A stretch of DNA of 64,000 bases from Phyllosticta citribraziliensis (lineage: Eukaryota), in the NCBI RefSeq assembly GCF_038025025.1, contig NW_027117339.1:1302001-1366000 (forward strand). The letters are read 5' to 3'. A program made the position numbers and the translations under genes. This document shows, piece by piece, positions 38,869-53,486 of the stretch (within the stretch, counting starts at the first letter, position 1; each line of letters begins with the position of its first letter). The notes under the pieces were generated by a model, which did no database searches, was not told the DNA's origin, and worked only from the letters and a program-made list of their open reading frames with translations.

Positions 38869-40281
38869 TTCCACCTGCATCAGCATCGGCATTGTCCAGC
38901 TTCAGCACTGCGGTTCTTTTGGTCTTGATTGTTGAAAAAAGCGCATGTTTGAGCGAGTTTCTGCCATGGCCTTTTTGCACCGCAACTCTAACGATACCCT
39001 CATCCACACGTAGTTTCATCCATCCAACCTAGCACCCTTCGCATCCCAATCCTTTTACGCGCCTCACTTTTTGGTTGCAAGATTGCAGCAGTGTTTCGAG
39101 ACTCTTCTTCCCAAGGGATTCGCACGTCTTCATCGCGCGCCTCACGCCACCATCTAGATCGCAGCACCCTTAGACGGAGGACTCCTTGCCCAACCAAGTA
39201 TAAAATTACCCCCCCTTCGAGTTGGTAGATTGTAAAAGTCGCCGATATCGCGTCGCGAACTTACCAAAGATTTTCTCTACTGGTGTAATTACTGAAAATG
39301 TTCTCCACGAAGGCATTCTTTACAGTAGCGCCGGGTTCTCTCAGCCGCAGCTAAAGGATCAGAGACGATATTTTTCACTTTCGAAAATTTCCTGTACAGA
39401 CTGCAAAAGCCAGCTATGCCATCAGGCTAACATGCCACCATCTAGGCTGTGGTGCGACACCCCATCACGAGGACCTTCCATTTTGCTTCTGGGCTGCGCC
39501 GAGGTGGTGGCGACCTATCGTACCTACCAACCGCCGGCGCGTTGACACCTCGTGTGTAAGGCACGGCAGGCAGACGAGGGAGCAGACGGACTGGTCCGTA
39601 GCCGGGAGCCGGACGGACCCGTGAGACCAACTCAAGGCAAGGTAGCTCTCCGTCCAAGATAGTTGCTGGCCAGACTAGCAGGGGAGGGGCGCTTTCGACT
39701 GTGTCTCATCAATCAGACGCGCTCGAGGCACGCGTCTGTGACCAATTTTATTTGTCTACTTTTTGGCCCCGTGGCGTTTCTGCCTTTAGCCATATGTTCA
39801 CTTCATGGCATGTTTGTGGATATCGCGGGGGGGACAGATGGGCACCTGACGACGCGTAGAAGCAGCCAGCAGCTCTTGCTCAAAAAAGGGGGAGAATATA
39901 GAAGCGCCAACAGCAACCATGGCGGCAGCTCTTCATGTCTTAAGTCCTGAAATTTCAAAATGGAAATGGTCAATTCTTCAACTTATGCTCTAAAGAGGTA
40001 TTCTAGTCGCGCAAATTCGCTTTCTCAATCTCGCTCATACGCTTCCCCTCATTCTGAACCAATCGTGTTCCAATCCAAGGCTATGGTGCCAGTCAAAGAA
40101 GACTCTTCAACACAGTAGCAGGAGATCGTGACGTGAGGGAGAAAATGGTGTTTGTACACAGTCTGTCTAAGTAAGAGGCGTCAATAGTCGTAATGATGAG
40201 TGGGTCCAAAGAGTGCTGGCCAAAAAAGAAGGAGCTGTGTCAAATTGGTTGGAGAGTTGGTGATTGGATCGAGCTTGCGGA

Positions 40282-42625
40282 TCATTTTGAATCGCAGTAC
40301 CCAGGAGCTTTCGCACTGTCGCCGTTGATCCAGCTGCTGATAGTAAGAGTGGACGTATAGGCCATGACAACCATGCCGAAGATGCAGAGAAAGACGTCGC
40401 TGAAGCGTTGCCAGAAGGTGCGAGCTACGGCGCGGTAATGCAACAGGGGCTGTCACTTTGGTTAGCATCTTTCTCGAGTTTGAAAGACTCTGGTAGGGAT
40501 GGCTCACCGGATAAATGTACACCAACGGCACACAAGCAAAGCTTCCAACAAGAGCAACAAACTTGTCCAAATCTCCAGCACCAACCCACGCAATCAAGGC
40601 GCAGGCAAAGACCATGCAGAAGCGGAAAATGTTCTTCTTCCACTTGATCCAGGGGTTGAACTTGCCCGTCTTGCTGAAGAGTTGCTGAGAACTAATCTCT
40701 ATCGCTGGGAAAATTTGCAGCGGAGTCGACAACAAGATGGCAAGGGAGTATATGAATTGAACGCCGTTGACAAACTTGTTGTCTTGCGGCATGTTGAGGA
40801 TGATGACGGTCTTGGTTTTTGAACCAAAAGCCGCGTATGACAGCGCGCCCATGCTGACGAAGATGACGGTAATGATCACCATGACGATGGCGAGGACGCG
40901 CGGGAATTTGGCGGGGTGCTTCATGCTGGATTGGATGGGGATGATTAAGCCGATGCCTTCGAATGTAAAGATTGCGGTGCCGATGAAGAGCGTCCAGCTG
41001 TTCGGGTTGAAGTTCTTGATGTCGGCGATGCCGTGCTGGGCAACAAGGGTCAAGATATCATAGTAGTACAGGTAGACCAGGCCCAGAACGATGAATGCAT
41101 CTGCGATCAAAGCGAGTTTTTGGATGTGGTTAATGTTGCGGTACAGCGACAGAGGGAGGAAGATGACCATTTGCATCAAGATCATCCACTTGATGTCGAT
41201 GAAGGTCTTGCATTTCGAGACAGCTTCAATGAAGGCCTGGAGATTTTCGGACACAAAGACGATGTATGCCGAGGAGAACCCGATTTGGCTGACCACGAGG
41301 GAGATGTTGATCAGGTTGCGCATCCACTTGCCGTACAAGTGGTAGCCCATGTCTCCAAAGGACGCATGCACGTACAAGCGAGTCGTGGTGAGCAGCACGA
41401 AGCAGTAGTAGCTGAGCGCTGCGACGAAGAGCAGAACGAGGTTGCTGAAGAGCATGCCACCGTTGAGAAAGGCTCTGGGCAAGAAGAGAACGCCGGTACC
41501 AACGAAAGACTTGAGGAGCAACATGGCAGCGCCAGAAGGACTGCCTTTGCCCGAAGACCTCTCTCTTTTTCTTCTCCGCTTCTGACCCGGCGCCAGAAGC
41601 GCACTGTGCTCGGTTGGACGTTCTCCCTCGTCGCTGGACTCACCGGCCGAGCCTTCGTAATTGTCGGACGAGAAATATTCGTCGGGCCCCAGTGCTTCGT
41701 CGTCCTCTTCGAGCTCCTCACCAGCAAAGTGTCCGTACAGACTGAGGAATTCGATGAAGTTATTGGTGAAGACCTGAGGGTTCTGCGTTGCTTGCCTGCT
41801 GACACCATTGGAAGGCCCGGACGGACCAGGAGAGGTGCTGTCTGCAGTCCTGCGAATGTAGTTTCTTCGGAACCCACCTGGTTGTTTGATGGTCTCGATG
41901 TCCAAATTCTGGTCTCTCGGCTTGGGGCGCGCGGCATGAAAGCTGCGACTTCTTCGGGTGTGTCCGCGAGCTTCGGCTTCTTGCTGTTCTGTCCAGCGGT
42001 AGATTTGCCTGTGGATATCTCCTCCCTGAAGCTGCAGACTGCTGAAATCTTCTTCGTCGACTGCATCGTCGTCGTAATCCGAACCCTGTATGGCGCTGCG
42101 CTTCGGAGACCCATAGACACCTGCAAGATTGGTGCCAGAACCCCCGCCCCCTACCAAGTGTCTCCTTACGATTTCATGGTCCTCCAACCGTGCGCCTGGA
42201 CTTCCGCCTTTTCCAGACCCCAGTGATCCATAATTTGGATTGGACAGACGGGCCGTTTGGTCAAGCGCTGGGGAGACAGAGCGGAGCGGAGGGGTGATGT
42301 TGCGGGGAGGTGTTCCCCCACTGTAGGAGCTCTTCAGGGCATTGGCCAAAGCTGATTCTCCAGGTCCCCGGTACGACGACTTGCCGCTCTCCAGGCCAGG
42401 GAGCGGGGTGCGCGATTCTGTCGCATCGTCTGTTTGCAGCTGTTGGGGGACAGGTACCTGGCGAACGGGCGGAGTGCCGACAGAGGGTATGGGAGAGCCG
42501 AGGCGAGCCATCGAGTTGGCTCTCAACGGTGAGCCATCTGGTTGGAGACGATCTCTCGTGTCCGACGACGAGTTAGGCGCAGGCACCGGCCGCGGCTGGG
42601 AGTCTTCGGAGCGCTGTTCAGACAT
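40282..42625 (-). CDS. AVT3: Vacuolar amino acid transporter, Avt3/Avt4 family
   Basis: Exons 42625-40508 and 40449-40282. Motifs: LQGGDIHRQIYRW, PGGFRR, NFIEFLSLYGHFAGEEL, LLKSFVGTGVLFLPRAFLNGG, FTFEGIGLIIPI, PLVYIYP|PLLHY. About 11 TM segments. AVT3 versus AVT4 not resolved. Confidence 0.85.
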
Positions 42626-43182
42626 GGCTTGCGGGATTTTCGACGGACTGCAGGCGAATTGTACGCAGATGATGCAGTATCAGCCGGACGAGGGAAGGCT
42701 GGTTTGAGCTTGGGAGCTCGGCGGGCGGCGGTAGTTGCGGCAGAGGCTCAGAGGAGCGTCAAGTGCGCGCAGCGAGACGCGGAGCTGTAGGGAGAGCCGG
42801 AGGTGATGAGGGCGCAGTGAAGAGGTTGAAGGGAGGTGGGAGACGACGGAGAGAACATGGCCATGCAGCGTGGATGGGATGCCTCGTCAACAACTGAACC
42901 TAACCGCGGCTGCGCACCTGGTCATGTCCGTGATTCAACGGGCCCTCTGATTCGCCGCCGGAGCCAAGGCCTGGACTTCATGCCGCTACCACTACCACAA
43001 AACACCGCAGCAGCACCATTAATCCTGCACATCCCTTGACTTTGCCCGTCGCCGTCAAGAAGGAAAAATCATGTCGGCCTCCAACGTCATTACCCGTCGC
43101 CGCTGTCTTTTGTCCATCTGTCGCGCCCACGCTCTGTGCTGACCCGCAGTCTACTCTGCTACCCTCGCTGCACTGGACGGTC

Positions 43183-46100
43183 ATGTCCTCTCGCATGCCT
43201 CCCAAGTCCCACTCCAACTTCGCCACAAGGTCCGCGCAGGACTCCACAAAACAGCTTACACGCCGCTGGTCCATCTACTCGATCCAGCAGACCGCCGAGA
43301 CTGACCCTCTGTTGGCTCCTCCACGAACACCGAAAAGCACAGGTACTTCGCGCCCAAGTAGTACCGGCTGGACGTCCTTCTTTTCAAATCTCCTCGGCAC
43401 CTCCAAGAACACGCCCTCGGCCAGCCGAGCGACGTCTCGGGCACCCTCAATTGCGCCATCGGTAGGACCCAGCGCGAGGAAGAAACGCCATGTCCGAAAT
43501 GTTTCCTCCGCCTCTGGGAGGCGGTCTGTCTCGAATGCGGAGACTGCCACGTCTGAAAAGATGACGACTTTCACAGGCGTCTTCGTTCCCACGACCTTGA
43601 ACGTTTTGAGCATACTGATGTTCCTCCGCTTTGGATTCATTCTTGGCCAAAGCGGACTTTTGGGCATGATGGGTAAGTCGAGGCACGTCCTGCTTTGTCT
43701 TTCATACCAGACGCTTTGTCTCCACCACTATTGCATTCAAAAACAAAGCCGAGGCCGAGCATCCAGCCTTATATCGCGTTTGTTCCACTGGGAGCCTTGG
43801 CTTACTTGGTCCCTGTCATTTGTGCACATTTGCGCCCCGTCTACTTTGATTTAAATACTCCGCCTGGGTGATGCTGATTGGCTGACAGGTATGCTCATTG
43901 CCTGTTACGCCATCAATCTCCTGACGACCTTGTCCATATCTGCCATTGCAACCAATGGCACTGTCCGTGGCGGCGGTGCCTACTACCTGATATCTCGTAG
44001 CCTTGGCCCTGAGTTTGGGGGCTCGATTGGCGTTGTCTTCTATCTAGGCTTCGTCCTCAACACAGGAATGAATGCCGTCGGTCTGGTCACCTGCTTCACG
44101 GGCAACTTTGGCTCCTCAACAGGGACCCTGGCGCACTGGCTGCCAGAAGGATTCTGGTGGCAATATCTGTGGTCAACAGCCGTCCTAGTCATATGTACTG
44201 CAATCTGCTTTGCAGGAAGTGGACTATTTGCCCGGTGCAGCAACGGCCTCCTCATAGTCCTCCTTGTTGCGACGTTTAGCATACCAGTCTCTGCTATAGC
44301 TCGTGCCCCTTTTGAGAGCAAGAAATTCGGCATAGAGTTTACTGGCTTGAGCCTTGACACTCTGAGAGGCAACATGCTGCCGCACCTGACTTCTGGAGCA
44401 GCCGGCAGTCAGCTAAAAGGACGAGAAACGTGGCAAGACTTGTTCGGAATTCTCTTCCCTGCCACTGGAGGCATCTTTGCGTGAGTTTGAAATCCTCTTT
44501 CCCGCTAGCCTTGACTCAATCTCGTAGGGGCGCATCCATGTCGGGCGATTTGAAAAGTCCTAGCAAATCAATTCCAAAAGGCACGCTCCATGGACTCGCC
44601 TTGACATTCGTCACATACACGGCCGTGATTCTGGCTATGGCGATGAGCGTGACGAGAGCTTCTCTATATCACAACGCTAATGTCATTCAGCTGGTGAGTG
44701 TCACAACATCTCTCATGTCTTGGGCCTTTGCTAATTGTAGACCAACATTTCCGAGACACTCATTCTATTGGGAGAGGTTGCTTCGACCTTTTTCTCCACC
44801 CTCATGGGTGTCATTGGCTCAGCCAAACTTCTCCAGGCCCTCGCGCGAGACAAGCTGATTCCCGGACTCTCGATATTCGGCAAGGGCACCAAGGGTGCTG
44901 ATGAGCCCATCTACGCCATCATCATCACTTACGCCCTTTCTCAAATTGTCATGCTCGCAGACATCAACCAGATCGCCTCGTTTGTTACCATGACTTATCT
45001 AATGACGTTCATGGTGACAAACTTGGCCTGCTTCTTGTTGAAGATTGCTTCGGCGCCCAACTTCCGGCCGTCATTTCACTACTTCAACTCGTGGACTGCC
45101 GCTATTGGCACTGTCATCAGTGCAGTCATCATGTTCTTCGTTGACGGCTTTTCGGCAACGATTTGTTTCATTATCCTTACTTTCATTTTCCTTCTCATTC
45201 ACTACACGACTCCACCAAAGCCATGGGGCGACGTCAGCCAGAGTCTGATTTACCATCAAGTCCGCAAGTATCTCTTGCGCCTCCGTCAGGAACATGTCAA
45301 GTTCTGGCGACCTCAGATCTTGCTCTTCATCAATGACCCACGGCGGCAGTACAAATTGATTCAATTCTGCAACTCCATAAAAAAAGGTGGTCTTTTCGTC
45401 CTCGGCCACGTCATCGTCACCAACGACTTTGCTGGTGCTGTTCCTGAAGCGAAAGCACAACAGACCGCCTGGAAGAAGTACATCGACTTTTCCAGGATTA
45501 AGGCATTCATCAATGTTGTAGTATCTCCGGACATTGAGTGGGGAACACGAAATGTAGTTCTCAGCGCAGGCCTCGGGGGCATGAAGCCTAACATGGTCTT
45601 CATGGGTTTTTACAATCTCAACGACCTTCGGACGCATCCTCTGGCGAAGCGTTGCTCCTCAGTCGCATCTCGACACAATAACCCACCAAACAACAGCCTG
45701 AAGCCGAAGAGCAAGAGAAAACAAGCCGAGGAGGACAAATTCAAGGGAACTCTGCCCACCGATGCCATCCGGAAAGAGAGTGCCGTCAATCCTCGCAGCT
45801 ACGTCACCATTCTTGAGGACTTGCTCTTGCGGTTGCAAATGAACGTGGCTATAGCCAAGGGCTTTCAAGATTTGGACCTACCATTTCCAAAACCCTCGAC
45901 GGTCGAAAAGTGCCTTGGCATGCTGCATATGCGAGAGGCAGAAGAAGAAGAAAACACGACCAAGTACATTGACCTGTGGCCCATCCAGATGGCAGCAGAG
46001 ATTGCAGCAGCTGGTCCAAAGAGCTCTCAGAGCGTCTTGACAACCAACTTTGATACATACACTCTAATTCTGCAGCTTGGATGTATATTGAGCACTGTAC

Positions 46101-47548
46101 CCTCCTGGCAGCGGGCTTATACACTTCGCGTTGCAGTCTTTGTCGAGTACGAGTCCGATGTCGATGAAGAGCGCCGTCGCGTAGCCACCCTGCTCGCCGA
46201 CCTCCGAATTGAAGCAGAAGTGCTGGTATTTTGGCTTGCCTCTGGAAACCTGCAGACGTATGAGATCATTGTCAACGGAAATGTGTCTCCCGAGTACGCC
46301 GAAGTTCCCAAGGAAGTGGAAGAATCATTGAAGGACGAATTCTGGTGGGAAGATATGCAACGTCTCCGCAAGAGCCAAAGAGAACCGGCCACGCCTCAAG
46401 AGGAAATTTCGCGTCTTGAAGGTTTCCTTGAGAGCGCGAGCAACTGGCCAGGCACTTCATTCCTGCAGGGAGATCACGACGCCAAGCCAAAGCGATTCGC
46501 CGACTTGAAAAAGGCCCTCAAGACAAGACGCAGGACAAGCATGAGAAGTTTGAGGCAATTTGGAGTCAATTTGAACATGCGCACGCACGGACTGGATTTG
46601 GCCGGCGCAGAGTATGCGAGCGAGGATGCGTTGACGACAAGTTCGGACTCGGATGTCGAAGACGAAAACGCCGTGGCCAGCACCAACGAGGAGCCCGACG
46701 AGGTTGCAAGCGAAAACGACGTCGACGAAATCGAGACATGGAGCTCTGATGAGGAAGACTTGTTGCCACTGCGACGAGCCATTAGTGATCAGAAGGACAC
46801 CAGAGACCTCGCGATGCCGAGGAAGGCCATTGGTCGCGGTATCATGCCACCCCAGCGAAGCATGCCAGGTACTGAAAACCAGCGTCCACCACATGCAGGG
46901 CAATCCAGCCAGCCGAGCAAGGACCTTGGACACCCTTCTGACGCCACAGTTCGCGAGCAAATCTTTCCCAAGTTTACCTCTCAAAAACTGCCAGAGACAC
47001 AAGTAGCCACCGATGAGACTACCGGCCCGTCAATCATGTTTGCCGAACCACATACAGCCGAAGACCAGCGCCTGCGAGCCTCCATCTATGCTCGCGGTAC
47101 CTCGCCTGCCCGTGGCACTGGAGCGTATGGTTATCAAGCCGACGGCGCTGCGGGAGAGTCTTCCCAAGCGCAAACGGCGGCCAAGACTTCGGCTTCCTCG
47201 ACACACAGCCGCAACGACAGCCGAAGTCAGGGCCAGAGCGTAAACCAAAGCCTAGTACTACCTCTAGCAGGCCTACCTCCCGTCGGAACGGCAGCCGCGT
47301 TACCGTTGTCCTTCAACGACCTGCCGTGTCGGGCGCAACACTTGATTCTGAACGAGTTGATCAAGAAGGAGAGCGGGGACGGGGAAACGGCTGTGGTGTT
47401 CACGACGCTGCCGAGTCCCGTCGAGGGGACCTGCGAGAGTGAAGAGTCTTCAGTGCAATACCTGAGCGATCTTGAGGTCTTGTGCGATGGGCTGCCGCCT
47501 GTCGTGCTTGTACACAGCAACAGCCTGACTGTGACTATGAATTTGTAA
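43183..47548 (+). CDS. VHC1: Cation-chloride cotransporter (SLC12 family), vacuolar Vhc1
   Basis: Exons 43183-43672, 43889-44480, 44528-44693, 44741-47548. Motifs: GVFVPTTLNVLSILMFLRFG, SAIATNGTVRGGGAYYLISRSLGPEFGGSIG, GASMSGDLK, PNFRPSF, HVKFWRPQILL, C-terminal LTVTMNL. Confidence 0.92.
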
Positions 47549-47809
47549 GGCGCGAGGGTCAGCGGGAGTAAAGTGCAAAAGCATGGGCATTAGATGGGCA
47601 GCATTATGGAGTTCTTGTTGCATTCTCTTCAAAAGCATGGAATCAAACAAGCTTCTATTTTCCGAATTTGACTCTGGGTACCTGGCACACAGCTTTCCTC
47701 CGTCCATTGACGAGCCACCATGACGGTTGCAATCGCCTCAGAGACCAAGGCGATCCGTGTCAATCCCAGATTAATGATTGCCAGCGCAGGCTAAAACCTC
47801 GGCAGCGAA

Positions 47810-48488
47810 TTAATCGCCCTTAGCAGGTTTGAAGAACTGATGGAGGGTCGTCTGTCTTGCTTCGAGTACCTGAACAGGCTTGAAGTATCGGTCGATAGTC
47901 ATCTGTCCGTTCTCCAGGCCCTTGTTTGCTGCGCCAGAAGTGTCTCCCGTCTCTGGTGTTGATTTGGCCACGGTATTCGCACTTCTACGAGCTGAAAGGG
48001 CCTTAAAGGACCATTTGACAATGTCCAGAAACGCGCGCATCTCGGTAATCACCTTGGTGTCGTTCGGATGCGGGTCCTCCCGTTCCTGTCGTCTGCGTTA
48101 GCCAACCTCTTCGTCTCCCAAGTTCGGTCTCTGCTCACAGATTGGACAGCTTCGTCGATCGCATTAACAGCATGAAGTGCGTTTGTAAAATGGTAGCGAG
48201 GACCTCCGCCAGGCAGCACGATGAGAAGGGCCTCGTATCTGGCTCTAGAGTACAGATCCAGGTCGCTGTGGAGGAGCACTTGTTCGGCCAGGTCGCGGGC
48301 GATGTCGGGACGTTCATCCACGACTTCCTCGTCGATCTGTTGTTTTTATCATTTCAGTCGACCGTCCCTCTGAATTCAGGTCTCGTTTTACGTACGGCTG
48401 CCTCCTCCGACTCTCTGAAAGCGCCGAGAGTACTTGAGCGCACAAGAAGGCTGAGAGCTCACATGAGCTCAGGGAAATCAGAGGGCAT
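47810..48488 (-). CDS. Orphan protein (172 aa) with tandem C-terminal PIP-box motifs
   Basis: Exons 48488-48463, 48414-48396, 48336-48139, 48085-47810, joined by three GT-AG introns (48, 59, 53 nt; the last has a GCTAAC branch point). All junctions keep frame. An upstream in-frame ATG is possible. Confidence 0.65.
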
Positions 48489-51319
48489 GTCGACGAACGC
48501 TTCTTCGACGTCCAAGGGAGTCGTGTTTGGTGGTGTCAGTGGCCAGGACGGACGATGGATGGAAGTTGAGAGGGCTTGGTTGAGCGGAGGACCGCAGATT
48601 TGTCTGACAGTGTGGTAAAGCAGGTGAACGGGTACCTTCCTCATCGGCGTGTTGACGCGCCGCCAGCTTGCGCATTTTGGCCTCACTTGCGCCGAAAAAG
48701 AGGAAGTCGTCCAACTCGGAGCATTCATCCCCCCACCTGCGCACACTACTTGATTCTGACCTTTTTCGTGCCGTCACCTGCTGATCCTTCTCCAGCATCT
48801 CGGTCTACCCTTTTCAACAAGTTTTCTTACTTCAGGCTAGCATGGACTTCAGTAGTCGGAAACGGCGTTCGTGCTCACACTCGCGACCACAGCGAGACTC
48901 CCACTTCGCAGACCTTTTGCAACAGAGAGCCACCAGCAAGAGGGTACACTACGATCGACGTTGAAGCAATCTCAAATCTGTTTTCTCCTTTTCAGGGAAA
49001 TCTTCAACGAGCTGGAGGCGGCGAACTGAGGAAAAAAAGGGTATTCTACGTAATCCTTTCGATCTGATGATGTTGAACGAATAGCTTACGTTGGCGGTTC
49101 CGACACGTAACAATTCCTTGACCACGTCCGTGGAGTGCGTAGATCCAGTGAAAGAGAGGGTAATCAAAAGAAGAGTATTGGAAATTCGGCCAGACGCGCA
49201 AAGAGATATCTCTTCTCTCGGGGCTCAATCTTCTCAAAACCGAGTCTTATCGAAATTCCGCAAATCACATCATCAAAGTACCAGGGTCCGGCTCTACGGT
49301 CAAGCTTTCCACCACGAATGACGACGCTCCTTGCCAACCAGATATTCACATCTGTCTCGCTTTATTTCCCACTACTCAATCAGCGCCGGGTACAACAGAG
49401 CGAGAGTCCGGACACGACAGCCGCGCCGCGCGCCCTCGCGCTTCGAGGGCCAACAACCTTAACTCTTTTTTCGGCCCCTCCCACGGCATCTCCCCAAACG
49501 CTTGCTTGATTCAAAGATATGCAAGCCATCGCCTTTCGATCGGAGACAAGCAAGAGGAGGGGGTAAGTGTTAGCCAAGCTTTCCGTACGCGCAGACAAAA
49601 GCGTGCAGCATGGAAGAACGCTTTGGGCCTGAATATTGGGTGGGACTACTCAGTCCGAGTCTGCGGTGTCCGCCAATAGCAGATTGCGTCTTCCGAAACA
49701 AAAGAAATGCGTTTTGAAATCCATCGAATCTTGTCATCTCGCCTTCTTTCTTGTTTACCCAGGAAAAGAGCGTGTCGCTATTTAGGATAGATGCGCCATC
49801 ATCCAACTCACCATGGCAAAAGTGCGTCTTCTTAGCTATAACGGCGAAGAGACGAACGGAGGAAACGAGAAACTTCGACACGCGACTCTTGAAACGCTGC
49901 TTAGCGGACGGGAGAGACGGTTTGAGTAATTTGCGGCTCCACTCTGCCTTCTCATCATACTCACCTCCCCAGCCCACGGTCTATCCGCGCCCGATCCAAG
50001 CCAATCGCATCATTCTACGCCAAAGCGATCTAAAAGACCGGCAAGCAAATGGACACGATTCAAAATCAAGCAATAATCAAGCACTCCCAATCCACTGATC
50101 GACGAACCAATTGTGGCTTAAAAAAAAAACAATACAACCACTCCTCCTAAAAGGAATCTCCCGCAGGCCAAAGCCGGCGACCAAGCGTGACCCTCGGTGG
50201 ACGGCTATCAGGCGACGAATGGAAGAGCGTGCGTGTGGAAAGGAGCGCGCGTCACACGAACCCGGCTCAGACGCAAACTTTCCAGACGCTCGAGCAGCAG
50301 CAGCAGCAGCAAACTCTAACTGCGTTGGGTGGCGCGCAGCATGAACGCAGCAATCGGTGTCTACAGGCTGGCCGACGGGCGGGAGAGGAAAAAAGACGCG
50401 TGCGATTGTACGGCAGGCCGGCAGGCGTGGAGCTAGCCGCGCCTGTTGTGGAAATTGCTAGCTCTGGGCAGACGAAAGGAAAGTCGGCGAATCCAGTTGG
50501 GCCAAGTATCCGATGCTCGTCGGATGGATGGGGCAAAGGAAATGGAGCGCAGACGGCGACGGACTGCCGGATGCACATCACTGCGATGGATGGTGACTCC
50601 GAGAGCCGACTGATCGACTGGGCCGACGGCCAGATGGAGCGTAGAGAGAAAGTGACGGAAGCCTTGGGACGCGGGTGAGAACCTTCTGCTTCAGTTCGCC
50701 CCGGGGGGCAGTCAGTCGGTCGGTGCAGCGTCGATTGTCAGTCGACTGGCTGGCGCTGGCCGGCTGGCTTGCTGGGTTATGCTGCAGGCGGCCAGAAGTG
50801 GCGCCAGAGAGAAAGGCAAGATTTCAGGTACGAAAGCTACTCTTGCACGGGGCGGACGGTCGACGAAGCTTATCAGACGCCCCTCACTCATCCCAATTCC
50901 CCCCATTCATGGAAGAGCAGGTTCGGGCGCGCGAGCGAGCCAGCCCTCGTGATCTGGACGTCTGCTACTGAATCCCAGATCTACTTTTCGTCGATTATTG
51001 GAAGCAGTTAAGCATACCTGAAAGTGGAGGTCAAGATGTATTGACAAGTGGAAACTGAAGTGCGTAATAAATGATGCTATTAAAAACTACCGTTATGGCA
51101 AGCCATCGTCACTAGTACGACGATGAGAGAAGCGAAGAAAAAGAGTCTGAGACACTTGCCGCCCGCCGTTTCGTTGCTTGCGAGAACAAACGCATAGACC
51201 CGTAGATCTAGGTAGAGCAACATGAACATCGCTAGAACATACATACTTCCTTGCGGAATTCACATACTGCTTTCCCTTGCCCTCGCATGGTAAATATCCC
51301 AATTTCGTGAAACCAATCT

Positions 51320-52063
51320 CTACATACCAAACGCCATGGCCGCAGCGACAGCTCCGGCGGCACCGACCATCTGCCCAATCGCGGCAGTTGCCGCAGCGCC
51401 AGTGAACACAGAGGGAGAAGTGGGCGTGCCGACCGGCGGCGTGTTGTTGCCTCCAGGAGGAATGATGCCAGTGGGGATGGTGACGTTTGGAGTGATGGGA
51501 GGCGTGACGGGGGGCGTCGTGACCGGCGTCGTAGGCGGCGTTGTCACACCAGCGGGAGCTCCAGCACCACCTTCCACATTACCCTGGACTCCACCCTGAG
51601 ATCCACCCTGAACGTTGCCTTGAAGGTTGCAGGCTTGTTTGGCCTTGTCTTGGAGGTCTGTCGATGATGTTAGTACGTTGTTATTTAGCAGTGTGATCAA
51701 GGACGACGCGAAAATGGTGGTGGATAGGTGCAACAGTGATACCGCTCGTCCCTTGAACGCAAGAAAACATGCTGGCGGGTTGACTGGATACGCGGAGGAC
51801 GGCGGAAACTCACCCAAGAGCTGATTTCCTTGGCAGGAACCGGGGTTTTGTGCCAGAGCCTGGACTAGGAAATTCGACACAAACCCGAAGCCAGCTCCGC
51901 AGACGCACTCGTAGTTATCCGCGGGCTTGCACGGGTTTTCGGGCGCTTGCATTGCTTGCTGGAAGTAGGTACCAGCACAAGACTCGGCGATGATTTTGAT
52001 GTCTATGGTGGCAGCCACCAAAGTGCCGAAGAAGGCGAGGGGGACGACGTTGGCGATTCTCAT
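51320..52063 (-). CDS. GPI-anchored cell-surface protein with a degenerate CFEM-like domain
   Basis: Signal peptide MRIANVVPLAFFGTLVAA; 6-Cys domain; P/T-rich stalk; GPI-like tail (FTGAAATAAIGQMVGAAGAVAAAMAFGM). Intron 51813-51658 (GTGAGT...CTAAC...CAG). Confidence 0.8.
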   Translation of the reverse strand: MRIANVVPLAFFGTLVAATIDIKIIAESCAGTYFQQAMQAPENPCKPADNYECVCGAGFGFVSNFLVQALAQNPGSCQGNQLLGEFPPSSAYPVNPPACFLAFKGRAVSLLHLSTTIFASSLITLLNNNVLTSSTDLQDKAKQACNLQGNVQGGSQGGVQGNVEGGAGAPAGVTTPPTTPVTTPPVTPPITPNVTIPTGIIPPGGNNTPPVGTPTSPSVFTGAAATAAIGQMVGAAGAVAAAMAFGM

Positions 52064-53486
52064 TTTCGTTGGTCGACCTTTGATGGAGGTGAAATGGCAG
52101 AACGACTGGAAGAGTTGTCAAGTGACAGGCAGGACCAGAATTTCAAGCGAACGTATGGGCGGCTGTAGGTGGAAGGTAAGAAGTGGGAAGGGCGAGAAGA
52201 TTTATACCGGCATCCGATAACGTTACGAGGTGCATGGTTGCCGTGCCAAGGTAGAGGCTGGTCTTTGAATCAGAATCTTGGGTACACCGGGTGACTTGAA
52301 GCTACGTTTGGCTGTCATTTTGCTTGGTTCCGAGCGAAGCCAATGCCGGAACGAGCGCAAAGGTGGTGTTTACGGCGCAGCGGTGGGTACCTGACAATCG
52401 AGCAACCCATTTCCTTGCCCGATCTATTCCGAAAGTGGTAACTATCCAGCCTCGAAGACGCCCTACCCGGCAACGACGACGACGTGTCAAAGCAATTGAT
52501 CGAACTGCCTGCCACCAATGCCGTTGGCAGTGCCGGTGGCAGCATCGGCGCCATGGTAGCCTGCAGTGCACAGACAGGGCTCGGCGAAGGCTTCCTGTCC
52601 AATGAGTAAGTTTGGAGACGTGAAGTTGTAGGCAGAAAACTATAAACCTGTCTTCCGAAATTGGACCGACCGCAACCTGTGTCCCGGGAGACGCAGTGAC
52701 GATGTTGGCTGAGGATAAAAATAGAGTTCAGCTTCAAGAAACATCTGCATCTGCAAGCAACCCAGCATTTCGAAGCGCAAGACAGTTCTCGCTCCGGCGG
52801 CATGCCCGTCATCAGCAAGAGTGGTCTGTTCAGCGTGGAATGAAACGCCAATCTGCGGATCGCAAACACCCTCAAGAAGTCCGTTTCGTCTCGAGCTTTG
52901 ATGTTGTGTGGGTGTGACTCGACGCAAGCTTAGCTTTGAGTCGGCATGCGGTGGTTGACGGCAATTACCCCAAAGTAAGGCGTCCGGAGTAACTGCTGCA
53001 GCTGTTGAGAGCCAATAGCTTGCGCCATCTCCATCATTTGAATTTTCAACGTCCGGGTCGCTGCTGCCGGTGTCGACATCCAACAGTGTGCAACTCCGCC
53101 TGGAGTGGATGGTCCATGTCAAGGGTAGTGCGCTGCGCCCATCACCGCTGGTAAACTCGGCTGTGCATGTTGATCCCCGGCGAGCTGACAATCCCCAGGT
53201 GGCGTAGAGGTGGTGGAAAGATGGCGAGGCAACGACAGGTGAGGCATCGTCGGCGCGGGAGGGCATCGAAGATTGTTGGCGGGGTTGGGCTTAAGGTTGA
53301 CGTCCAGACTGGGTATCGCTGTAAAAATCGACGAATGTCATTCGCAATGACGCGTCGGCCCTTTGAGCTTATTCACTGCAGCGCAAATAGGGATCACAAC
53401 TGTCCCAGACGCTCTCCTCGGTGTCATGGCAATCAGACACGTCGGCGCTTGTCGCATCGTCGCTTAACCGCACATCAAAGTCAGTA

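What the first reader, a model, noticed from the sequence alone, without database searches (positions are those of the whole stretch)
47810..48488. Hidden 4-exon orphan gene ending in two tandem PIP boxes: candidate novel PCNA-binding protein
Seen: three frame-preserving GT-AG introns join ORF fragments into a 172-aa protein, MPSDFPELIESEEAAIDEEVVDERPDIARDLAEQVLLHSDLDLYSRARYEALL...KGLENGQMTIDRYFKPVQVLEARQTTLHQFFKPAKGD*. Its tail is a 17-aa duplication (LENGQMTIDRYFKPVQV / LEARQTTLHQFFKPAKG) that is also similar at DNA level. Each copy matches the PIP consensus Q-x-x-[ILM]-x-x-[FY]-[FY] (47882-47905 and 47831-47854). Established: C-terminal PIP boxes dock on PCNA, and a basic residue at +4 (K in the second copy) is part of the CRL4-Cdt2 PIP degron, although the degron's TD is absent here. 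Inference: a small lineage-restricted bivalent PCNA binder or competitor that could engage two protomers of the clamp. I recognise no family for its helical N-terminal region.
Basis: partly seen in the sequence, partly recalled or inferred. Interest (0 to 1): 0.72.

Follow-up and report, generated by a model that had tools for sequence, protein, structure and literature searches.

The report
Broken copy of PCNA-tag gene family
This fungal gene is not an orphan but one of eight copies of an undescribed family of small helical proteins, some of which keep a conserved docking tag for the DNA sliding clamp PCNA; this copy is interrupted by an early stop codon and is probably no longer made.

Summary
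The 172-aa model and both PIP boxes are in the sequence, and the 51-nt duplication is beyond chance. The gene is not an orphan: the genome (matching Phyllosticta citribraziliensis records) holds 8 family loci. Introns 2 and 3 sit at conserved positions in 4 of 4 paralogs modelled. A PIP box recurs in a paralog (two boxes) and in a P. capitalensis member (one box, at the C-terminus) at 27-33% core identity, so PCNA docking looks like a selected family trait (3 of 13 genes). The core folds as a TPR-like five-helix bundle. Intron 1 is doubtful: read through, it is the coding start of the orthologs (M-R-A-L-S-L-L), with TGA where they have Arg, and that T also forms the predicted GT donor. RNA contigs show none of the 3 predicted joints; they show a plus-strand intron from an antisense transcript, probably the neighbouring SLC12 gene's 3' end. 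The orthologs' models stop before the tail. Best reading: a recently broken copy of a lineage-restricted family of PCNA-tethered adaptors; rescue by a new intron is the rival. The degron is not supported. Binding is untested.

The parts
48463..48488 (-). Predicted exon 1 (upstream ATG). Unspliced it is a 9-codon ORF ending at TGA 48461-48459. Not conserved in orthologs.
   Evidence: ortholog starts; pLDDT <50 for residues 1-9
48459..48464 (-). ATG-TGA: the ATG matches the annotated start Met of the P. citricarpa ortholog; the TGA stands where both orthologs have Arg. Its T is also the T of the predicted GT donor.
48415..48462 (-). Predicted intron 1 (48 nt). Ancestrally coding: in-frame read matches orthologs 9/16 and holds the start of helix 1 (TLGAFR). 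No consensus branch site (CTCAA at -20).
48396..48414 (-). Predicted exon 2 (3' part of the ancestral first exon)
48337..48395 (-). Intron 2, phase 0, position shared with 4 of 4 modelled paralogs
   Evidence: retained in the P0005 model
48139..48336 (-). Exon 3 (198 nt; 198, 207, 198, 198 nt in paralogs): helices 2-4 of the TPR-like core
48086..48138 (-). Intron 3, 53 nt, phase 0, branch site GCTAAC; position shared with 4 of 4 modelled paralogs (52-53 nt)
47810..48085 (-). Exon 4: helix 5, disordered linker, two PIP boxes, TAA. First in-frame Met after the early stop is at 48040 (76 aa to the stop).
47867..47917 (-). 51-nt unit 1, holding PIP box 1 QMTIDRYF (47905-47882)
47816..47866 (-). 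51-nt unit 2, holding PIP box 2 QTTLHQFF (47854-47831), K at +4, no TD
48097..48149 (+). Plus-strand GT-AG intron (53 nt) skipped in one RNA-run contig; overlaps minus-strand intron 3 with an 11-nt offset. Its donor GTTAGC is the reverse complement of intron 3's branch site, and its branch-like GCTCAC that of intron 3's donor.
47549..48403 (+). Antisense-spliced stretch, on one contig with the SLC12 (cation-chloride cotransporter) mRNA whose stop is at 47548; probably its long 3' end
   Evidence: (upper end inferred from record length and the joint's side length)

Best explanation
The locus is a recently inactivated copy of a Phyllosticta multigene family of small, mostly acidic TPR-like proteins. 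In intact members a five-helix core acts as a protein-binding module (inferred from fold only), followed by a disordered linker and either PIP box(es) that dock on the PCNA interdomain-loop pocket or a KRGRES-type basic motif that looks like a nuclear signal (label from my own knowledge). The PIP-bearing members would tether a partner to replication or repair sites, or compete weakly for the clamp. Shown: family, conserved introns 2-3, motif recurrence, the stop, the predicted fold, the antisense joint. Inferred: PCNA binding, adaptor role, loss of the protein.
For: Read-through matches the orthologs' N-terminus 16/23 and 15/23, 9/16 inside 'intron 1', against 31/50 in exon 3. No modelled paralog has an intron there; paralog L106 carries the matching helix-1 stretch uninterrupted. 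Two public models skip the stop with different introns, 48 and 30 nt. Ortholog models end at 73 and 100 aa before the tail, so this branch seems dispensable. In fission yeasts, putative intronizations with changed splice signals were supported 1 time, disproved 50 times, no data 8 (PMC3629103 Table 1). The only joint seen at the locus is plus-strand. PIP boxes in L004 (2) and P. capitalensis P0018 (1) at 33% and 27% core identity; shuffle P 0.0005-0.008 per tail. The genome's PCNA keeps the pocket stretches 40-44 and 117-135 (pocket as defined in PMC6881253).
Against: Exons 3-4 are open for 157 codons with coding-like synonymous usage (43rd percentile of 90 coding windows; 6% of 328 non-coding windows score as high), so any loss is recent or the copy is alive. 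The 48-nt intron has a good donor and acceptor and a normal length for this genome, the upstream ATG is in frame, and other family introns also have non-consensus branch sites. The 172-aa form still folds. PIP boxes are absent from 10 of 13 genes seen, and the tree does not group the 3 bearers. Flank charges are 0, +1, +2, -6, -1, not the positive flanks linked to tight binding. Ortholog DNA could not be read.
Confidence: 0.55

Rival explanations
1. Intronization rescue: the change that made the stop also made a GT donor, the 48-nt segment is now spliced out, and the 172-aa two-PIP protein is made.
For: Fits the Catania and Lynch predictions: short, 3n, stop-containing, 5'-proximal (PMC2586383 passages). 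Stop and donor share one base. Frame and codon usage are intact downstream; fold kept, pLDDT about 90 over residues 11-120.
Against: Base rate of 1 supported to 50 disproved. An X1 contig contains the intron's letters (48405-49561, depth 18; only 10 letters on one side, strand unknown, may be DNA). No consensus branch site.
Confidence: 0.17
2. The motifs serve another partner that reads PIP-like motifs (Rev1-interacting RIR or Mlh1-interacting MIP) rather than PCNA.
For: PIP, RIR and MIP motifs overlap (PMC6881253). Flanks are near neutral or acidic.
Against: The position-1 Gln and position-4 aliphatic residue are present in 5 of 5 boxes (partly by construction of the scan); from my own knowledge RIR and MIP do not need them.
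Confidence: 0.1
3. A short product is made by re-initiation at Met 48040 (76 aa: half of helix 5, linker, two PIP boxes) or by stop read-through, and acts as a PCNA competitor.
For: It is the first in-frame Met after the stop; both boxes are intact.
Against: It needs introns 2-3 spliced, and no such joint was seen; exon 3 is as well kept as exon 4, which a tail-only product would not require.
Confidence: 0.08
4. The family is a fast-turnover conflict system (selfish element or its suppressors) that targets the clamp, and the host PCNA has diverged in step.
For: 8 dispersed and tandem copies at 23-52% core identity among the 6 aligned; repeated breakage; the PCNA exon is 70-75% identical to 54 fungal PCNA segments that are 77-99% identical among themselves.
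Against: The PIP pocket itself is unchanged; no mobile-element domain among the flanking ORFs scanned; no close-relative control for the PCNA rate.
Confidence: 0.06
5. The second box is a CRL4-Cdt2 PIP degron giving S-phase destruction.
For: K at +4 of box 2.
Against: TD in 0 of 5 boxes; basic +4 in 1 of 5; P0018 ends before +4 (definition from PMC3973308).
Confidence: 0.04

Closest known systems
Canonical PIP-box PCNA partners with a C-terminal box (p21, FEN1; motif as in PMC6881253)
   Same: Q-x-x-aliphatic-x-x-aromatic-aromatic in a disordered tail, at or near the C-terminus here and in P0018.
   Different: No enzyme or known domain attached; flanks not strongly basic; family found only in one fungal genus; binding unmeasured.
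PIP-degron substrates of CRL4-Cdt2 (Cdt1, p21, Set8; fission-yeast Cdt1 has dual degrons, PMC3152358, seen as listing only)
   Same: Two PIP-type motifs in one small protein; K at +4 in one box.
   Different: No TD, +4 basic residue not conserved, no sequence relation found.
TPR/alpha-solenoid adaptors (Nro1 3msv Z 9.7, rmsd 2.3, 94 aligned; Sec-complex chain 7kak_F Z 9.7; Rap 6t3h Z 9.4; Cns1 6hft Z 9.2)
   Same: Antiparallel helix pairs plus a long capping helix.
   Different: 5-17% identity, no Pfam TPR match, Foldseek best E 0.42; Z under 13 for helical bundles is non-specific, so no family can be named.
Intronization of stop-containing exon sequence (PMC2586383; S. pombe SPBC29A10.02 in PMC3629103)
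   Same: Short 3n segment of former coding DNA, with an in-frame stop, bounded by GT-AG near the 5' end.
   Different: No transcript support here; most such predicted cases were annotation errors.

Membership tests
PIP-box PCNA-interacting proteins | Canonical motif Q-x-x-[LMIV]-x-x-[FY]-[FY] | tested here: met
   2 boxes here, 2 in L004, 1 in P0018; definition
PIP-box PCNA-interacting proteins | Motif in a disordered, accessible region | tested here: met
   pLDDT <50 over 129-163 and 165-172
PIP-box PCNA-interacting proteins | Motif conserved above its surroundings in relatives | tested here: met
   3 of 13 genes, 2 species, linkers unalignable; ortholog tails could not be read; common origin of the boxes not resolved
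PIP-box PCNA-interacting proteins | Positively charged flanks | tested here: inconclusive
   Net charge of box +/-7 residues: 0, +1, +2, -6, -1
PIP-box PCNA-interacting proteins | Physical binding to PCNA | not testable with these tools
PIP degron (CRL4-Cdt2) | TD at positions 5-6 | tested here: not met
   DR, HQ, DQ, FD, EE (definition)
PIP degron (CRL4-Cdt2) | K/R at +4 after the last aromatic | tested here: inconclusive
   1 of 5 boxes
TPR-repeat proteins | Sequence match to a TPR profile | tested here: not met
   No TPR family among 9 members at E<=1; Atlas TPR clusters only at 0.80
TPR-repeat proteins | Stacked helix-turn-helix fold | tested here: inconclusive
   Best Z 9.7, many tied TPR-like rows; Foldseek none at E<=0.001
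Expressed protein-coding gene (this copy) | Uninterrupted frame from the conserved start | tested here: not met
   TGA at 48461-48459
Expressed protein-coding gene (this copy) | Spliced transcript with the predicted joints | tested here: inconclusive
   0 of 3 joints in 2 contig sets; contigs show presence, not absence

The most novel reading that the evidence does not exclude
Phyllosticta has evolved its own fast-turnover family of TPR-like clamp adaptors alongside an unusually divergent PCNA, and at this locus a single base change created both a stop codon and a working splice donor (an intron being born), in a gene whose third intron is spliced in mirror image on both strands.
Probability: 0.1. 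Interest if true: 0.7.

Novelty: new variant of a known kind. Interest (0 to 1): 0.38.

Why it matters
New PCNA partners usually come as enzymes with a tag. A genus-restricted family that joins a bare TPR-like core to gained and lost PIP tails would show clamp partners being invented and dropped within one fungal genus, and it gives two intact genes (L004, P0018) to test. For this locus the practical lesson is that the public 172-aa model probably hides a nonsense change. One RT-PCR would tell a broken gene from a newborn intron, which is rarely caught with transcript support.

Tried and rejected
Pfam: no family for exons 3 or 4 or P0001; only single-member hits at E 0.08-0.28 in the family. 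Word-index homolog searches: 1 of 66 and 1 of 80 candidates, self only; the profile search gave 5 of 6,662 and missed P0003, which was in the query, so absence outside Phyllosticta is weak. P0008 (limpet protocadherin, E 1.3e-4) was dropped as spurious. ESM Atlas: three unnamed Ascomycota clusters at 0.86-0.88 and TPR clusters at 0.80, leads only; the family may reach beyond the genus. PDB sequence search with the profile: best E 0.32. Foldseek PDB and viral: none at E<=0.001. Metagenome scan with P0001: 408 pattern matches, none confirmed. RNA: no RNA holder listed on record; run X2 has no cover over 47923-48756; neither counts as evidence. No second DNA copy in the genome; no Rfam match in the window; Tandem Repeats Finder does not call the 51-nt pair. 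Complex prediction with a stand-in fungal PCNA (L100, 168/244 identical) was not available: no verdict. Orthology of L004 and P0018 by tandem order was considered; the tree does not support it (P0018 pairs with P0006, 88/87). Earlier scan notes: nothing for this place, sequence or words; 8 of 189 notes shown for 'PIP box PCNA' concern archaeal and viral proteins. Literature: 'Phyllosticta'+'PCNA' 2 papers, both unrelated by title and abstract; two searches listed nothing on this family; and PMC8469720 passages gave symmetric introns but no case of one intron region spliced on both strands.

Full report
Observation. Joining minus-strand 48488-48463, 48414-48396, 48336-48139 and 48085-47810 across GT-AG introns of 48, 59 and 53 nt gives the stated 172-aa protein, with QMTIDRYF at residue 142 and QTTLHQFF at 159. 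The pattern occurs 5 times in 127,996 six-frame residues of the window, 2 of them here. None of 100,000 shuffles of the tail gives two boxes. The two 51-nt units match 32/51 and are the only place in the window reaching 31/51 at that lag, which I chose after the fact. The identical protein is a public Phyllosticta citribraziliensis model, probably predicted on this same assembly (contig lengths), so it adds no independent support. The gene lies convergent with an SLC12 transporter gene, 261 nt between the stops, among housekeeping genes.

Not an orphan. Exon 3 finds four paralogs in the own genome (E 3.9e-4 to 0.067); further queries bring the count to 8 loci. In the 4 that I modelled fully, a phase-0 intron precedes a 198-207-nt exon and a 52-53-nt phase-0 intron follows, as for introns 2 and 3 here. 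By eye L105 has both introns, L014 only the second and L106 neither in the core. A search of 1.84 billion representatives gave 7 hits: six Phyllosticta proteins and one limpet cadherin that I dropped. A profile search gave 5 of 6,662 candidates, all Phyllosticta, but it missed a member of its own query, and the Atlas offers three unnamed Ascomycota clusters at 0.86-0.88, so the range may be wider.

The PIP box is a family trait. Paralog L004 has QRTLDQFF and QMAIFDYF; P. capitalensis P0018/P0019 ends in QTVLEEYF plus three residues. Their cores are 33% and 27% identical to this one and the linkers do not align. P. capitalensis is the most distant of the sequenced citrus species (PMC9073689, passages). 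Shuffle probabilities per tail are 0.0005-0.008. In all, 3 of 13 distinct genes carry a box, 2 of 8 in this genome; 2 of the 13 are models that end before the tail. Several others end in a KRGRES-like basic motif. The tree groups this gene with P0003 and P0005 (92/93) but scatters the three PIP bearers, so one origin with losses is possible but not shown. Against tight binding, flank charges are 0, +1, +2, -6 and -1, while positive flanks raise affinity (PMC6881253, passages). The degron signature (PMC3973308, passages) fails: TD in 0 of 5 boxes, basic +4 in 1 of 5.

The first intron is the weak point. Read through, 48488-48396 has one stop: M-stop-ALSLLVRSSTLGAFRESEEAA from 48464. The P. citricarpa ortholog begins MRALSLLLPSNTIGSFEESEEAA and P. 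citriasiana has the same stretch. Identity is 16/23 and 15/23, 9/16 inside the supposed intron, against 31/50 in exon 3. The segment holds the start of helix 1, and L106 has the matching stretch without an intron. So this is former coding DNA. The T of the TGA is also the T of the predicted GT donor; one change from an Arg codon would give both (inference; ortholog DNA not seen). A second public model skips the same stop with a 30-nt intron. In fission yeasts such cases were supported once and disproved 50 times (PMC3629103, passages with Table 1), though the pattern is what the intronization hypothesis predicts (PMC2586383, passages). The ortholog models end at 73 and 100 aa, before helix 5 and the tail. 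Against a long-dead gene, exons 3-4 are open and keep coding-like synonymous usage (43rd percentile of 90 coding windows; 6% of 328 non-coding windows as high).

RNA. Two contig sets, guessed to be RNA, were laid on 40000-52500. They show 6 joints: 5 in neighbouring genes and none of the 3 predicted here. The sixth, in one X1 contig only, skips 48097-48149 with GT..AG on the plus strand; the piece up to 48096 has no other letters, so it is not the minus-strand intron misplaced. That contig is continuous with the SLC12 mRNA. Another contig (48405-49561, depth 18, near the 7-27 of the flanking bins) contains intron 1's letters but has no strand and may be DNA. Contigs drop rare forms, so a minor sense transcript is not excluded.

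Fold. AlphaFold2 on 9 sequences gives five helices (5-21, 25-36, 43-55, 61-82, 88-123) at pLDDT about 90 and a tail under 50. Foldseek finds nothing at E<=0.001 in the PDB or viral sets. The wide aligner's best Z is 9.7, with many tied TPR-like chains, which is non-specific for helical bundles. No Pfam TPR match. Cores are acidic in 10 of 11 rows; P0018 is +3.

The clamp. The genome has one PCNA match, about 68 kb away, with unchanged pocket stretches but a long branch overall. Only 9 residues, at most about 34-38 A, link the boxes; from my own recollection equivalent sites on neighbouring protomers lie further apart, which makes avidity or alternative use likelier than bridging within one ring.

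Mechanism and verdict. Most likely (0.55) intact family members are small nuclear adaptors in which a TPR-like core holds a partner and a PIP tail tethers it to PCNA, and this copy was recently broken by a stop codon. Rivals are rescue by a newborn intron (0.17), another motif reader (0.10), a short tail-only product (0.08), a conflict system (0.06) and a degron (0.04). It works like a PIP-box partner by motif and conservation; membership awaits binding. I found no description of the family in the open-access searches run (subscription papers are not covered, and no supplements were read). The family is new and testable, but the named protein is probably an annotation rescue: interest 0.38.

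Noticed in passing
window 48097-48149 (+) and 48086-48138 (-): Mirror-image introns: two 53-nt GT-AG introns on opposite strands, offset 11 nt, each one's donor being the reverse complement of the other's branch site. The plus one is seen in one RNA contig; the minus one is position-conserved in paralogs.
   Followed up: partly
window 47549-48403 (+): The SLC12 transporter contig runs about 850 nt past its stop, with an intron 549 nt after the stop, covering exons 3-4 of the PIP gene antisense. One contig does not prove one transcript.
   Followed up: partly
L008 (G000:C2:1418657, about 68 kb from the gene): The single PCNA match in the genome is a long branch: 70-75% identity to 54 distinct fungal PCNA segments that are 77-99% identical among themselves; 17 otherwise near-invariant positions differ, none in the pocket stretches 40-44 or 117-135. 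No close-relative control.
   Followed up: partly
L004:1880-2017: L004's two boxes resemble the window's in swapped order: L004 box 2 matches window box 1 at 7/12 aa, L004 box 1 matches window box 2 at 6/12, against 5/12 between the window's own two.
   Followed up: no
G000 C1:497028, 499959, 502236; C4:168524 and 170337: Family members sit as a tandem trio on C1 and a convergent pair on C4; downstream of L006 and L007 lie related low-complexity frames that some public models fuse to the core.
   Followed up: partly
P0006, P0014, P0015, L006 tails: Members without a PIP box often end in a KRGRES-like basic motif instead.
   Followed up: no
P0013, P0016, P0017: These P. capitalensis models appear to fuse the PIP-ending gene (P0018/P0019) to the last exon of its neighbour (P0006), hiding the terminal PIP box.
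   Followed up: partly
window 51073-52137 (-): Highly covered two-exon gene with a signal-like start, Cys-rich part and Pro/Thr-rich tail; no Pfam match for the ORF scanned.
   Followed up: no
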